Positions 38,344 to 44,229 of a stretch of DNA of 64,000 nt are shown here, one piece after another. A program made the translations under genes and the position numbers. This stretch comes from the human T2T-CHM13v2.0 reference genome, Homo sapiens. The stretch is from the NCBI RefSeq assembly GCF_009914755.1, contig NC_060926.1. One strand, 5' to 3'. Under the pieces are notes generated by a model. It was not told the DNA's origin. It was given only the letters and a program-made list of their open reading frames with translations, and made no database searches. The number at the start of each line of letters is the position of its first letter. The stretch's first letter is position 1.

Positions 38344-38633
38344 TCATGTTTGTCTTTATAAGCCTTTTGGTATTCATTGATTTTTCAGCCATGTGCATGT
38401 AGGTCTTTGATTTAAAAAAAAAAAAAAATTTAAAAAGGAAAGGAAATAGACTAGAATGAAAGAGACACATGAGAAGACACTGTGGCAGTCTTGGGTAGTG
38501 AGGTCCTGGGCTTTGTTTTGCCTGACTTTTCCTTTTTTGTGTTTTCCAAATTTTCTGTAATAAGGATGTAATATATTTGTACTAGAAAAGTTCAAAATAA
38601 ACATTTTTAACAAACATGCTTACAAATACTTAA

Positions 38634-38837
38634 ACCAAGAGAAGGTGAGATGGAAAATGTGGCGAGGGGGAGTTAGGGGATCAGTCCAGGAGGTCTCCTG
38701 TCTAATGCAAGTTCCAGAAAACAAGAACAGAAAAAATGGAACATAGATGAGCAGTGAAGTGAAATCCCAGGAAGCCACGTGTGCACCAGCAGAGAACCCT
38801 ACCCAGCTGGGGCAGAACACAGGGGGCGGGGCCTGGG
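38634..38837 (+). repeat. Copy 2 of the ~205-bp local duplication
   Basis: About 95% identical to 36269-36473. Confidence 0.95.
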
Positions 38838-38964
38838 AGTCTCAGGGAAGCCCCACTGTAAGTTTCCTGCAGTTGAAGCCATGGGCCCAAAGTGTTGATA
38901 TGCATAAGAATCACCCGGTTCCTTTGTTAGCTCGTTTATGGGGGGAAGAAAGGAATCACATGGT

Positions 38965-39426
38965 GACCAGCACAGTAGCTCATGCCTGTAACCCCAGGAC
39001 TTTGGGAGACTGAGGTACAAGCATCGTCTGAGTCCAGGAGTTCAAGACCAACTGGGTGACATTGTGAGACCCCTGTCTCTACAAAAAAATTTTTTAATTA
39101 GCCAGGCATGGTGGTACCAGCCTGTAGTCCAAGCTACACAGGAGGCTGAGGCAGGAGGATTGCTTGAAGCCAGGAGTTCAAGACCAGCCTGGGCAACATA
39201 GCGAAATCTCATCTCTATTAAAAATTAAAAAAAAAAAATTAGTCAGTCTTGGTGGCGCATGCCTGTAGTCCTAGCTACTTAAGAGGCTAAGGTGGGAGAA
39301 TGACTTGAGCCCAGGGGGTTGAGGCTGCAGTGAGCCTGCAGTGGAGCTATGATTGTGCCACTGCACTCCAGCCTGGGCAACAGTTGAGAATAGGCCTCAA
39401 AAAAAAAAAAAAAAGAAAGAAAGAAA
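38965..39426 (+). mobile_element. Three-armed (chimeric) AluJ
   Basis: Left arm, linker, right-arm start, switch back to a left arm, linker, right arm, tail. Confidence 0.85.
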
Positions 39427-39559
39427 TCAACTGGGGAGTTACTGAAAATGCAGAACCCCAGGCCCGCCTCAGAGATGTGGACCTTTCTAGAGGCCCTACT
39501 ATATGCTATAGTATTCTCATATAATTCAAAATGTAAAGCAATACCAAACCAGGAAATTA

Positions 39560-39839
39560 TTTTTGATTTTTTATTTTTGAGACAGTCTCTCGCTCTATTG
39601 CCCAAGCTGGGGTACAGTGGTGTGATCTCGGCTCACTGCAACCTCTGCTCCCAAGTGATTCTCACGCCTCAGCTTCCCGAGTAGCTGGGATTACAGGTGT
39701 GCGTCACCACGCCTGGGTAATTTTTTGTATTTGTGGTCTATGTTGCCCAGGCTGATCTCAAACTCCTGACCTCAAGTGATCTGTCCACCTCAGCCTCCCA
39801 AAGTGCTGGGATTACAGGCGTGAGCCACCACACCTGGCC
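39560..39839 (-). mobile_element. Alu with internal deletions
   Basis: TSD AGGAAAT(T/G)ATTTT. Confidence 0.9.
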
Positions 39840-40424
39840 AGGAAATGATTTTTCTAATGTCCTAAGTTATCCAATACATGATACGCATACAGTGGATATG
39901 GAGTTTGAATAGCTGTCTTTCCGCAATGGACCATTTTCTAGCGTGTGTGCATAAGCATGCCCACATGTGCCTCTGCACTACTAATGCTTCAAGCAGGTGC
40001 CAGGCCTGCCTAGCAGCTCATCCAGCCCTGGTCAGAGCTGGGGGACCGAGATTTGTAACCGCATCCCCAGGTGACAGGGGAAACCTGGCTCCAGGACTCC
40101 ATCCCACAGGGCAGAGCTCTCCCACTTTAATCCCTGTACCATTCAGTGCCGGCTAGATCCAGTTCTTTCCCCTGCTCACAACTCTGGGGCCACTCCAACC
40201 ACAGGGGCAAGAGAGATCCTAGGGGCTGCAGCAGCTAGTACTAGCAACTCAACTGCAGAAAAGTTACAATGAAACAAGTTCTCCCAGGCAGAGGGAGTCA
40301 GAGCTCCTGCGGAGGTGTCCACACACCGTTCATTAATGCCTCACCCCTACCACCAAGGGACTGCCAGGTAGGGGGCTTTCCACACGCAGGACGTGGCTGG
40401 ATTGCAAGGTTCCTATGACCCTAG

Positions 40425-40670
40425 AAATCCTGGTTGCCCAGAAAGATTTTGCCACCACAACCACCACTTCCCCCTCATCCCCCAGGGAGTTTAGCAATGT
40501 TTAGGGACATTCTTGTTTTAACGGAGGACTGGAGGAGTGGGGTGCCACTGGCATCTAGTAGGCAGAGGCCGGGCATGCGCTAAAAATCCCACATACGCAA
40601 GACAGCTTTCCCATCGCCCAACTCCAGTAAAAAATTATCTGACCCAAAATGTTAATGGTGCCAAGCTTGA
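40425..40670 (+). mobile_element. MER20 DNA transposon
   Basis: gattttgcc..ctggcatctagta..aattatctgacccaaaatgttaatggtgccaag. Confidence 0.85.
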
Positions 40671-41462: not shown

Positions 41463-41847
41463 AGATATCAGCACAACATTTGTTGGGATGAATGAATGTA
41501 CAATTGTGACGTCACACCAGCAATCAAAGCTCTGGCAGTGTGTGAGGGCGAGGTGTCTTATTAACTTTTGTTGTTTGGGTGTGGTAAGGCCACCAGATCA
41601 GGAGAGGGTTGTCATTGAAAAGAGAGTTGGTTATTCACAGCCCCAAGAGGATGGGGCGAGCTACACTATAAAAGGGCCATGCGGGGAAGCCCAGGGTGGT
41701 TTAAGAGGCCATGAGAGAGGGAAAAGTGGGGGCAAGGGAGAGAACACAGTCTTGGGACTGGTGAGTTGGAATAATTTGGGTGGGTTCTGGGACATACGGG
41801 CTGTCCCTCATCGTCTGGTACCTGACTCTAGGATGATTAGGGCAGGT

Positions 41848-41907
41848 AGACCGTAGCCTAGAGTGTGAGACCGCAGCCTAGAGTGTGAGACCACAGCCTA
41901 GAGTGAG
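41848..41907 (+). repeat. 3 x 20-bp tandem repeat
   Basis: AGACC(G/A)(T/C)AGCCTAGAGTGTG three times. Confidence 0.95.
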
Positions 41908-42072
41908 AGCCTTCAAAGGAAGTGGTGGAGTCGTGGGCTCTGGGTTGGTTGGTTTGCATTTGAAAAGCACACTGGAGAGCCAGCTGTCTACTGCTTCTAG
42001 GAACTGGCTAACCTACCAGAGGGTCAGCAAGGCCCAGACATCAAAGCGTTAAAATACAGAAAAAAAAGATGT

Positions 42073-42365
42073 GACTGGGCACAGTGCTCACACCTGTAAT
42101 CCCAGCACTTTGGGAGGCTGAGGCGGGTGGATCACCTGAGGTCAGGAGTTTGAGACCAGCCTGACCAACATGGAGGGACCCCGTCTCTACTAAAAATAAA
42201 AAATTAGCCGGGCATGGTAGTGCATGCCTGTAATCCCAGCTACTCGGGAGGCTGAGGCAGGAGAATTGCTTGAACCTAGGAGGCGGAGGTCGCTGTGATG
42301 AGATCACGCCATTGTACTCCAGCCTGGGCAACAAGAGTAAAGCTCCATCTCAAAAAAAAAAAAAA
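42073..42365 (+). mobile_element. AluSp/Sq
   Basis: CTGACCAACATGGAG and GGCAACAAGAG diagnostics; TSD AGATGTG. Confidence 0.93.
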
Positions 42366-42721
42366 GAGAGAGAGAGATGTGGTTAATACACAAGGGGAAT
42401 GTCAGAGTCAATAACAAAATATGTGACATAATAAGCTGATGCTTGCTGTGTACGCATAGGTCCATGAAAAGGAGATATATATTCAAGGTGAATGGAGTCT
42501 GACTGGGTAGCTTCTTTTTCCCCCTGCAGATTAGATTTTATTTAAATGGCCGGGTCAATTTCAGAGAACGGAAATCTCTAAGGTAAATCAATCATGGGGG
42601 CAGAAAATATTTCTTCACCAAAGAATGTAAGAGAATATAAAGAATTTTCAAATCCCCCCACCCCGTAAAATAACCACACAAATGGCTGGGTCAAAAAAAC
42701 AGACCAATAAAATCATACATA

Positions 42722-43462
42722 CACCCAAATGTCCCTCAACAGATGAATGAATGAATAAAATGCAGTCTACTCATACAATGGAATATTATTCAGCAGTAAA
42801 AAGGAGTGGAGTACTGATGCATGCTACAACATGGATGACCCTTGAAAACATCATGCTATGTGGAAGAAGCCAAACAGTCGTCACATATTGTACGATTCCA
42901 TTTATGTTAAATGTCCAGAATAGGCAAACCCATAGAGACAAAAAGTAGACTCGTGTTGCCAGGGACCTCATGAGGGGAAGAGGGACTGGGGAGTGACTGC
43001 TAATGAGTTTCTTTTGGGGGTGATGAAAATGTTCTAAAATTAGTGGTGGTAGCTGCAAACTATGAATACACTTTTTTTTTTGAGACAGAGTCTCACTCTG
43101 TCACCCAGGCTGGAGTACAGTGGCACGATCTCAGCTCACTACAACCTCTACCTCCCAGGTTCAAGCAATTCTCCTGCCTCAGCCTCCCAAGTAGCTGGAA
43201 TTACAGGCACACACCACCATGCCTGGCTAATTTTTTATATTTTTAGTAGAAACAGGGTTTTGCCACATTGATCGGGCTGGTCTTGAATTCCTGACCTCAG
43301 TGGTCTGCCCACCTTGGCCTCCCAAAGTGCTGGAATTACAGGCATGAGCCACCGCGCCCGGCCTGAATATACTTTTTAAAGATGTACTGAATTGTGTACT
43401 TTAAAAGAGTGAACTTTATGGTATGTGAATTATATCACAATAAAGCTGTTATTTAAAAAAAA
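42722..43462 (+). mobile_element. L1MB(7/8) 3' end
   Basis: acccaaatgtcc..atacaatggaatattattcagc..gtgaactttatggtatgtgaattatatcacaataaagctg. Confidence 0.9.
43072..43363 (-). mobile_element. AluS within L1MB
   Basis: TSD TGAATA(C/T)ACTTTT. Confidence 0.93.
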
Positions 43463-44229
43463 CAAAAATACTTAAACCATAGCAATAATCAAGTGTTCCC
43501 TATTAACACGCAAATACTCCTGAGAGAGTTATAAAATAGTCATCTCTCCTGGTTGTGGAAATCTCGCAGGAGAAGAAGCTGCTGGCCCTATGCGTTCAAA
43601 TATTAGTGCAGTTCTTGTAAAAGCCACTGTGAGACTCAGCTCAGCCTTCAGCCTTGCGTGCATGTGTGCACGTGAGATGCCAGCTGGGAGCTGGCGAAAG
43701 ATGGAGGACAGGAGGGAGGGGAGGGATGTGAAAGTAGGGAATGAATAGGGCTCATCTGCAAGGCACTGGAGGCAAAAATAGAGAGTGGCAGAGACAAGCC
43801 TACACACCTCGCCCTGAGGTCCCCAGGCTCTCTTCTTCATGCTGCACTCCCTGATGTGACAGTGCAGCCACCCGCGTCAGGATAGGACCAGCACACAGAT
43901 CGGGAAAAGACCCGTGAAGTTTAAGGTGAAAATAGGGCAGGACATGATGTGAAAGAAACTGGCAGGCATGCATCACAGGCCAAGAGGCAAGTGAGGGCCC
44001 AGGTGGTCCACACACCCCACAGGGAGAGGACACTAAGGACCAGGGAGGTGGTACCAGGAAAAAAGCGATGAGCTGAGTCTCTCTTCACCTTGGTTTTACA
44101 CAAACTGAACATAAAGGATGTAAATACCATGGCCAGCCCTCACTTTCCTCAGTAGATGGAGTTTGCACTAAGCCACATGTTCGCAATCCATGAATTGCCA
44201 TTCCTTTGTATCAACAAACATTACTGAGT

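What the first reader, a model, noticed from the sequence alone, without database searches (positions are those of the whole stretch)
38622..43479. Hidden ~4.8-kb retro-insertion whose 5' end copies neighbouring DNA
Seen: AAATACTTAAACCA occurs at 38624-38637 and 43466-43479 (16 bp with one mismatch, preceded by TT on the left, like an L1 endonuclease TT/AAAA site). The right copy directly follows AATAAA (43439) and an A run at the L1MB 3' end. The left copy sits exactly where the ~95%-identical copy of 36269-36473 begins, sharing a 4-nt ACCA microhomology. Known: TSD, poly(A) and 5' microhomology are hallmarks of L1 target-primed reverse transcription. Inference: an unspliced transcript ending at a dead L1MB poly(A) signal was retroposed here with its MER20, LTR, Alus and unique DNA, and ~200 bp of local DNA was captured at the 5' junction by template switching. 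Repeat maskers would show only the old internal repeats.
Basis: partly seen in the sequence, partly recalled or inferred. Interest (0 to 1): 0.8.

Follow-up and report, generated by a model that had tools for sequence, protein, structure and literature searches.

The report
Local patch duplication mimicking a retro-insertion
A 14-base repeat and a 217-base local copy are really there, but the 4.6 kb between the repeats has no parent copy anywhere in the human genome, so this is more likely a small break-repair patch than a hidden retro-insertion, and only other primate genomes can settle it.

Summary
AAATACTTAAACCA occurs only at 38624-38637 and 43466-43479. It is not a repeat-family word: 88 copies genome-wide against 99 for the reversed control. 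The left copy overlaps by ACCA the start of a sharply bounded copy, D2 (38634-38851), of D1 (36269-36485, not 36473). The two are 94.9% identical. The right copy follows AATAAA and an A-run at the canonical end of an old L1 fragment.

Every non-Alu part of 38600-43061 searched in the T2T genome matches only itself, plus D1 and old repeats at 68-87%.

My best reading (about 0.45) is that the block is ancestral. A break between 38623 and 38852 was patched with 217 nt copied from 2.4 kb upstream plus a 10-14 nt filler copied from 4.8 kb downstream. This matches the known "repair-mediated duplication" class (PMC2671141).

It explains the poly(A) adjacency and the endonuclease-like TT/ACAA site better.

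Ape, monkey and lemur orthologues would decide; none were available here.

By-product: window 38455-38614 was carried to chromosome 4 behind an SVA-like element.

The parts
36269..36485 (+). D1. This is the donor copy of the 217-nt duplicated segment. It is unique DNA whose only other genomic copy is D2.
38455..38620 (+). Old LINE-type 3' end (E1) forming the left flank of the junction. It has AATAAA at 38598-38603. A cleavage site near 38614-38618 was used in vivo, as shown by the chromosome-4 retrocopy.
38622..38637 (+). T1. This is the left copy of the 14-mer (38624-38637), or 16 nt with one mismatch from 38622. Its last 4 nt, ACCA, are shared with the start of D2. It is either templated filler or the left target-site duplication.
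38634..38851 (+). D2. This is the 218-nt acceptor copy of D1 at 94.9% identity. Four substitutions and a 2-nt indel cluster in its last 34 columns, and it carries 3 tandem double substitutions.
38852..43465 (+). Block Y, 4.6 kb. It holds Alus at about 38953-39410, 39584-39849, 42062-42345 and 43088-43374, unique DNA, a low-copy repeat at 41117-41444, and the old L1 3' fragment. No paralog exists elsewhere in the genome.
42723..43454 (+). 5'-truncated old L1 3' fragment, interrupted by an Alu at about 43062-43374. It is 75-81% identical to other genomic copies.
43439..43444 (+). AATAAA hexamer of the L1 3' end.
43455..43465 (+). A-run AAAAAAAACAA at the canonical L1 tail position.
43466..43479 (+). 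T2. This is the right copy of the 14-mer. It is either the donor of the filler or the right target-site duplication.

Best explanation
The 4.6-kb block 38852-43465 most likely was always at this place. About 10-25 million years ago a double-strand break arose between the flank of an old LINE 3' end (up to 38623) and 38852. It was repaired by synthesis-dependent strand annealing with more than one template. One free 3' end copied 10-14 nt (AAATACTTAA, plus ACCA) from the DNA just behind the old L1 tail 4.8 kb downstream. It then re-annealed through ACCA at 36269 and copied 217 nt (D1) from 2.4 kb upstream, and finally rejoined the other break end.

The net change is a patch of about 228 bp at 38624-38851. 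[quoted passage not shown]

Shown: the two copied pieces, their sharp borders, the ACCA overlap, and the lack of any parent copy for the block. Inferred: the break, the order of template switches, and the age. On this reading, the 14-mer's donor lying next to a poly(A) tail is a coincidence.
For: (1) No part of the block has a paralog. Each query matches only itself, plus D1 or old repeats at 68-87%. This holds for 39840-40420, 40421-42040, 38600-38960, 42366-43061 and 39416-39562. The flanks are also single-copy: 35950-36935 and 43466-44210. The search is sensitive enough, because it finds D1 at 91% and the two chromosome-4 copies of about 110 nt at 97-98%.

(2) D2 taken alone fits the published class in every measurable respect (PMC2671141, passages and section 7 read).
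- 824 of 1,136 duplicons have the donor within 5 kb, and 66% are under 3 kb apart; here the distance is 2,365 bp.
- The proximal acceptors average 162 bp, with a maximum of 619 bp; here the acceptor is 218 bp.
- The donor is single-copy.
- Microhomology of 2-9 nt is present in 31 of 39 inspected proximal cases; here it is ACCA.
- Filler of 1-68 nt is present in 25 of 39; here it is 10-14 nt.
- 20 acceptors are chimeras of two donors, and in 5 of them the second donor lies within 3.5 kb of the first.

(3) The borders of D are sharp, with no flank homology. This argues against gene conversion between old repeats and against a tandem duplication.

(4) The differences between D1 and D2 cluster at one end, with 4 substitutions and a 2-nt indel in the last 34 columns. 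They include 3 tandem double substitutions among the 11 substitutions. By inference, this is what error-prone repair synthesis produces.

(5) The Alus inside the block show no A>G excess on the + strand. Inside, A>G is 13 of 201 and T>C is 11 of 200; outside, 77 of 1604 and 79 of 1437. There is thus no trace of passage through an edited RNA. This is weak evidence.
Against: The donor of the 14-mer starts exactly at the end of the A-run of a sense-oriented L1 tail, with an intact AATAAA 11 nt before the A-run starts. Only 100 of 20,000 positions within 10 kb on either side have at least 10 of 11 A's directly upstream. Only 14 of 20,000 also have a poly(A) hexamer nearby.

The left copy sits at TT/ACAA, a 5-of-6 match to the L1 endonuclease site TT/AAAA. 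Only about 1% of positions reach that score.

The repeat length of 14-16 nt is typical of L1 target-site duplications (my own knowledge).

The A-run (A8CAA, followed by AAA) is longer than the A-runs of 5-7 seen after 4 of the 5 other old copies inspected; the fifth showed no clear run. AATAAA is intact here but clearly so in only 1 or 2 of those 5.

The test for the old L1's own flanking repeat, which would have proven that the block is in place, was not significant (P 0.14 against 97 A-run controls).
Confidence: 0.45

Rival explanations
1. L1 ORF2p nicked the site ...GCTT/ACAAATACTTAAACCA. It reverse-transcribed a polyadenylated, unspliced transcript (or an orphan 3' transduction) that ended at the poly(A) signal of a dead L1 at another locus. 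At the 5' end the reverse transcriptase or the cDNA switched to a local + sense template, either D1 RNA or D1 DNA. The product joined the target through ACCA. The result is a 4.83-kb insertion at 38638-43465 flanked by a 14-16 nt target-site duplication. The donor locus has since been deleted from the human lineage.
For: All four class-1 hallmarks are present: a TSD of 14 of 14, or 15 of 16; AATAAA 11 nt before the A-run; an endonuclease-like TT/ACAA site; and an A-run directly before the right repeat. The joint chance of these is low (0.5% and about 1%).

Polyadenylated intronic or intergenic fragments inserted by ORF2p are a described class (PMC5110952, passages read). Sense-oriented 5' chimeras made by template switching to a nearby RNA are also described (Law and Burns, passages read).

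The locus is transcribed on the + strand and its RNA has been retroposed, as the chromosome-4 copy shows.

Four of the 5 single substitutions between D1 and D2 are A in D1 and G in D2. An edited RNA template would give this pattern, but the numbers are small and one of the sites is a CpG.
Against: The predicted paralog does not exist. For an event this young, loss of an entire 4.6-kb donor is by my estimate a matter of a few percent (inference).

Capture of 217 nt from 2.4 kb upstream at the 5' end of a retro-insertion is unusual. In PMC2671141 none of 39 inspected proximal duplications had a poly(A) or poly(T) tract.

The tail is short, at 11 nt with an interruption, compared with A14-A16 for Alus in the same block.

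The Alus inside the block show no A>G excess.

The supplementary tables of PMC13174262 list no chimeric insertion with coordinates near this locus. That is weak evidence, because those tables list L1 chimeras only.
Confidence: 0.3
2. A local transcript running D-Y-poly(A) was retroposed a few kb downstream of its own gene. The original Y next to D1 was later deleted. D is then simply what remains of the source copy.
For: This needs no template switch. It explains both the local origin of D2 and the missing paralog, and it keeps all the TPRT hallmarks.
Against: L1 integration has no known preference for the donor's own neighbourhood, so re-insertion within a few kb is roughly a 1-in-a-million event (inference). 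A second, independent deletion of at least 4.6 kb is also needed. There is no microhomology at the 36485/36486 border.
Confidence: 0.03
3. The 14-mer pair is the old L1's own ancient target-site duplication, or the pair is chance, and D2 is an unrelated later duplication that happened to land next to it.
For: A perfect 13-nt repeat flanks another tiny L1 3'-end fragment of the same old type at 36203-36261. Perfect old repeats therefore do occur in this window.
Against: The DNA between 38852 and 42722 is not L1, so the left repeat is not at the L1's 5' end, which lies at 42723. With about 76-81% identity between old copies, a 14-of-14 match is expected in only about 2-5% of cases (inference). 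D2 would have to abut the repeat to the base. A chance pair is excluded.
Confidence: 0.04

Closest known systems
[quoted passage not shown]
   Same: The donor is on the same chromosome 2.4 kb away and is single-copy. The acceptor is 218 bp. There is 4-nt microhomology and a short filler, the acceptor ends carry no poly(A), and a two-donor chimera is possible.
   Different: The filler's donor lies exactly behind a poly(A) tail, and the acceptor site resembles an L1 endonuclease site. Together these give the whole 4.8-kb interval the look of a retro-insertion. The acceptor is not inside a transposable element, so the published screen would not have found it.
Class 1 templated sequence insertions, processed-pseudogene-like retrocopies and orphan L1 3' transductions (Onozawa and Aplan 2016, PMC5110952; passages read)
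   Same: There is a target-site duplication of at least 5 bp, a cryptic AATAAA 10-30 nt before an A tract, and a TTTT/A-like site. The inserted material would be non-L1 intergenic sequence with its repeats.
   Different: No donor locus exists in the genome, whereas this class is defined by one. The size of 4.8 kb is large. The 5' end carries 217 nt copied from 2.4 kb upstream.
Chimeric LINE-1 insertions made by template switching, such as U6/L1 (Law and Burns, bioRxiv 10.1101/2025.02.02.635956 and PMC13174262; abstract and passages read, 4 supplementary tables searched)
   Same: A sense-oriented foreign piece sits at the 5' end of a TSD-flanked insertion.
   Different: The 5' piece here is unique local DNA, not an abundant small RNA. 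The 3' part is not an active L1. The supplementary tables hold no entry near this locus.
Class 2 templated insertions and microhomology-mediated template switching (MMBIR/FoSTeS; recalled, not read here)
   Same: Short templated stretches from several nearby sites are joined by 2-5 nt microhomologies, with extra mutations near the junctions.
   Different: No accompanying copy-number change is visible. Whether the template was DNA or RNA cannot be told.

Membership tests
L1-mediated retrocopy (class 1 templated insertion / orphan transduction) | Direct repeat of target DNA (at least 5 bp) at both ends | tested here: met
   14 of 14, or 15 of 16, at 38622-38637 and 43464-43479; 0.03 expected by chance; not a repeat-family word
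L1-mediated retrocopy (class 1 templated insertion / orphan transduction) | Poly(A) signal 10-30 nt upstream of an A tract at the 3' end | tested here: met
   AATAAA at 43439-43444 and A8CAA at 43455-43465. This is also the natural end of the old L1, so the feature does not discriminate between the readings.
L1-mediated retrocopy (class 1 templated insertion / orphan transduction) | Insertion at a TTTT/A-like endonuclease site | tested here: met
   TT/ACAA is a 5-of-6 match to TT/AAAA; about 1% of positions reach this score
L1-mediated retrocopy (class 1 templated insertion / orphan transduction) | A donor locus elsewhere in the genome from which the RNA was transcribed | tested here: not met
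   Only self-matches for all non-Alu parts searched
L1-mediated retrocopy (class 1 templated insertion / orphan transduction) | Empty site in outgroup species | not testable with these tools
   No other primate or mammalian genome is held; G000 'has no relatives here'
Repair-mediated duplication (PMC2671141) | Acceptor sequence present at exactly one other place in the genome, within 5 kb on the same chromosome | tested here: met
   D2 matches only D1, 2,365 bp upstream
Repair-mediated duplication (PMC2671141) | Short acceptor (mean 162 bp, maximum 619 bp) that is not a tandem copy | tested here: met
   218 nt, not tandem
Repair-mediated duplication (PMC2671141) | Junction signatures: microhomology of 2-9 nt, filler of 1-68 nt, small deletion | tested here: met
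   ACCA overlap, and 10-14 nt of non-D sequence at the left junction that matches 43466-43479. A deletion cannot be assessed without an outgroup.
Repair-mediated duplication (PMC2671141) | No poly(A) or poly(T) tract at the ends of the acceptor | tested here: met
   Neither end of 38624-38851 has an A or T tract
Repair-mediated duplication (PMC2671141) | Acceptor absent, and flanks contiguous, in outgroup species | not testable with these tools
   No outgroup genome is held

The most novel reading that the evidence does not exclude
A 4.8-kb piece of ordinary intergenic RNA, with its Alus, its unique DNA and a dead L1 whose poly(A) signal ended the transcript, was inserted by L1 machinery in an ape or catarrhine ancestor. 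Reverse transcription finished by jumping onto a transcript or the DNA of the target's own neighbourhood, copying 217 nt. The parent locus has since vanished, so this retrocopy would be the only surviving record of that ancestral sequence. Repeat annotation would never reveal such an insertion.
Probability: 0.3. Interest if true: 0.55.

Novelty: new member of a known kind. Interest (0 to 1): 0.3.

Why it matters
Either way the locus is a useful cautionary case. If the repair reading is right, a 228-bp break-repair patch can imitate the full set of retrotransposition hallmarks (flanking repeat, poly(A) signal, A-run, endonuclease-like site) across an unrelated 4.8-kb interval. Hallmark-based calls of 'hidden' retro-insertions therefore need a donor locus or an empty site. 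If the retro reading is right, it documents a large non-L1 insertion with capture of local sequence at its 5' end and a lost donor, a kind that repeat maskers and retrocopy screens both miss. No effect on genes is apparent: the nearest gene, INO80D, lies about 34 kb downstream.

Tried and rejected
Tandem duplication of D...T. Rejected because 36486-38623 and 38852-43465 share nothing but Alus.

Gene conversion between two old repeats. Rejected because the flanks of D1 and D2 are not homologous. The ungapped 15-of-25 similarity left of D (P about 0.001 against window positions) did not survive gapped shuffle tests (P 0.29-0.41). It may be junction homeology or A/T richness.

The old L1's own flanking repeat at its 5' end (42683-42726 against 43455-43499). 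Score 12, P 0.14 against 97 A-run controls. Inconclusive.

The flanking repeat of the LINE end E1 as a test of which DNA originally followed 38623. Both hypothetical flanks scored at chance (P 0.53 and 0.996).

RNA-editing signature in the Alus of the block. No excess found.

Base composition of the block against its flanks. No contrast: the window is 45.6% GC and the block parts are 36-53%.

Further short templated patches near the junctions. Only background 12-13-mers turned up. Two 13-mers pointing to the repeat at 2880-3245 did not extend.

Splicing of D to the block. No GT follows 36485.

Search of the supplementary tables of PMC13174262 for coordinates near the locus. No hit.

Supplementary tables of PMC2671141. 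These could not be read, so D2 might be listed there without my knowing.

Earlier findings of this scan.

The repeat names MER20, L1MB, LTR12 and SVA could not be verified, because no repeat library is available. 38600-38960 and 39416-39562 gave no repeat hits at all.
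Full report
**Observation.** The 14-mer AAATACTTAAACCA occurs at 38624-38637 and 43466-43479 and nowhere else in the 64-kb window, even with one mismatch allowed. Shuffles expect 0.03 matches. In the whole T2T genome the word occurs 88 times, against 99 for its reversed control. It belongs to no repeat family, and a same-strand pair 4.8 kb apart is not chance.

The left copy is preceded by ...CATGCTTAC. The right copy is preceded by CACAATAAAGCTGTTATTTAAAAAAAACAA. 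With two more bases the pair matches at 15 of 16.

The right copy lies directly behind the canonical end of an old L1 3' fragment. In one search all 39 other matches, at 75-81% identity, begin at query position 356-377, which is window position 42721-42742. Five other copies end at ...CAATAAAGCTGTTA followed by an A-run in the same register.

The left copy overlaps by ACCA the start of a copy of DNA from 2,365 bp upstream. This is D1 (36269-36485, 217 nt) against D2 (38634-38851, 218 nt), with 11 substitutions and 2 indel events, 94.9% identity. The borders are sharp, because gapped alignments of the flanks do not beat shuffles.

A retrocopy about as old as the 5% divergence between D1 and D2 should have a parent at about 95% identity elsewhere. 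I searched the window's own complete genome with every non-Alu part of the interval.
- 38600-38960: self and D1 only.
- 39416-39562: self only.
- 39840-40420: self only.
- 40421-42040: self, one 80% match on contig 19, one 70% match on contig 9, and short old repeats at 68-87%.
- 42366-43061: self and old L1 copies at 81% or less.

The flanks are also single-copy: 35950-36935 and 43466-44210. The search is sensitive enough. It found D1 at 91% and two fragments of about 110 nt on contig 4 at 97-98%. The predicted paralog therefore does not exist in a complete human genome.

**What else could give D1...T1|D2...T2?**
- A tandem duplication is excluded, because 36486-38623 and 38852-43465 share only Alus.
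- Gene conversion between old repeats is excluded by the non-homologous flanks.
- The old L1's own target-site duplication cannot be the pair. The L1 begins at 42723 and the 3.9 kb before it is not L1.

Two models remain.

**Model G, a repair patch.** The block is ancestral. A break between 38623 and 38852 was filled with 10-14 nt copied from 43466-43479 and 217 nt copied from D1, with ACCA as the switch point.

This is the published class of repair-mediated duplications (PMC2671141; passages and section 7 read).
- 824 of 1,136 duplicons have the donor within 5 kb, and 66% are under 3 kb apart.
- Proximal acceptors average 162 bp, with a maximum of 619 bp.
- Microhomology of 2-9 nt is present in 31 of 39 inspected cases.
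- Filler of 1-68 nt is present in 25 of 39.
- Twenty acceptors are chimeras of two donors.
- None of the 39 has a poly(A) tract.

D2 fits on every count that can be measured here. The clustering of differences at D2's 3' end, and three tandem double substitutions among the 11, suit error-prone repair synthesis (inference).

ORF2p inserted a polyadenylated 4.6-kb RNA at ...TT/ACAAATACTTAAACCA, with a 5' switch onto a local D1 template. The donor locus was later lost.

R explains what G must call coincidence.
- Only 0.5% of positions within 10 kb have at least 10 of 11 A's directly upstream.
- Only 0.07% also have a hexamer nearby.
- Only about 1% match TT/AAAA at 5 of 6 or better.

AATAAA is intact, and the A-run is longer than the runs of 5-7 A's seen after four of the five other old copies; the fifth showed no clear run. 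Such insertions of intergenic RNA are a described class (PMC5110952). So are sense-oriented 5' chimeras made by template switching (Law and Burns).

R, however, needs two unlikely things. One is the complete loss of a 4.6-kb donor within 10-25 million years, which I put at a few percent (my estimate, not computed). The other is a 217-nt capture of local sequence at the 5' junction, which is uncommon.

**Attempts to break the tie.** None of these was decisive.
- The old L1's own flanking repeat: P 0.14.
- The flanking repeat of the LINE end left of T1, tried under both hypothetical ancestral flanks: at chance.
- The RNA-editing footprint in the block's Alus: A>G 13 of 201 against T>C 11 of 200 inside, and 77 of 1604 against 79 of 1437 outside.
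- Base composition: no contrast between block and flanks.

Four of the five single differences between D1 and D2 are A in D1 and G in D2. That hints at an RNA template, but the numbers are small and one site is a CpG.

**Weighing.** Repair duplications with filler are far more numerous than 4-kb-plus non-L1 retro-insertions. The retro reading also pays twice, for the lost donor and for the local capture. The repair reading pays once, for a joint coincidence of about 1 in 10,000. The priors are my own rough estimates.

I put G at about 0.45 and R at about 0.3. The remainder goes to variants, including re-insertion in cis followed by deletion of the source, and to things I have not thought of.

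**Age.** The D1/D2 divergence is 5.1%, or 3.7% if doublets count once. The contig-4 copies of 38455-38614 differ from the window at 4 of 227 positions, about 1.8%. By inference this places the event roughly in the ancestor of apes or of catarrhines. Gibbon, macaque and marmoset are therefore the informative outgroups.

**By-product.** Window 38455-38614 is the 3' end of an old LINE-type element. It is 79% identical to two copies on contig 16, each of which ends in an A/T-rich run.

On contig 4 (L027) this stretch appears twice in opposite orientation around a 496-nt high-copy young repeat (2,420 candidates; the 39 scored apart from the locus itself match at 96-97%) followed by A21. From recall I take that repeat to be the SINE-R end of an SVA. 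A T13 run sits on one side, and AAA(A/G)AATTTC flanks both sides.

This is the structure of a twin-primed L1-mediated insertion of an RNA reading [SVA-A21-window 38455...38614-poly(A)]. That would be an SVA 3' transduction whose source sat just upstream of window 38455. No SVA is there in this assembly. It also shows that the AATAAA at 38598 directs cleavage near 38614-18, a few bases before T1.

**Limits.** No outgroup genome and no repeat library were available. Family names are recalled. The supplementary tables of PMC2671141 could not be read.

Noticed in passing
window 38455-38614; L027 (G000:C4:138962891-138966008) positions about 1488-2266: Contig 4 holds two inverted, overlapping copies of this window stretch. 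One is 97.5% identical over 118 nt and the other 99.1% over 109 nt. They flank a 5'-truncated high-copy young repeat (SVA SINE-R by recall) followed by A21, with T13 at one end and a 9-of-10 flanking repeat AAA(A/G)AATTTC. This looks like a twin-primed SVA 3' transduction whose source SVA, just upstream of window 38455, is absent from this assembly. It also shows that the poly(A) site near 38614-18 is used.
   Followed up: partly
window 36203-36261: A perfect 13-nt direct repeat AAAATCTTCCAGA (36203-15 and 36249-61) flanks a 33-nt insert. The insert consists of 27 nt that align end-to-end with the last 25 nt of the old L1 3' end at 43430-43454 (20 of 27, P 0.012), followed by an A-run. It is a minimal L1 3'-end insertion with an unexpectedly intact flanking repeat, ending 7 nt before D1 starts.
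   Followed up: partly
window 41117-41444: A low-copy repeat with only two other genomic matches: 80% on G000:C19:1953516-1953827 and 70% on C9:5048137-5048441. An A-rich stretch follows it. It may be an old retrocopy fragment of a gene's 3' UTR.
   Followed up: no
window 41848-41907: Three tandem 20-nt units, AGACCGTAGCCTAGAGTGTG, at 85-100% identity. They lie inside a repeat (41731-41870) that has many 72-82% matches genome-wide.
   Followed up: no
window 36269-36485 against 38634-38851: Of the 11 substitutions between D1 and D2, 6 form 3 adjacent pairs (CG/TA, TT/GC, CA/AG). Four of the 5 singles are A in D1 and G in D2. Four substitutions and a 2-nt indel fall in the last 34 columns.
   Followed up: partly
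window 36936-37990: A block of about 1 kb between D1 and T1 looks like a solitary LTR in minus orientation (LTR12-like by recall, not verified). It has an internal 47-nt repeat spaced 90 nt apart at 37747 and 37837. If it is younger than the duplication, D1 lay only about 1.3 kb from the break.
   Followed up: no
window 43457-43473 and 47105-47121: The 17-mer AAAAAACAAAAATACTT recurs behind an Alu tail 3.6 kb downstream. This shows that A-rich tail-plus-flank words can match by low complexity, but it does not include the TTAAACCA part of the 14-mer.
   Followed up: yes
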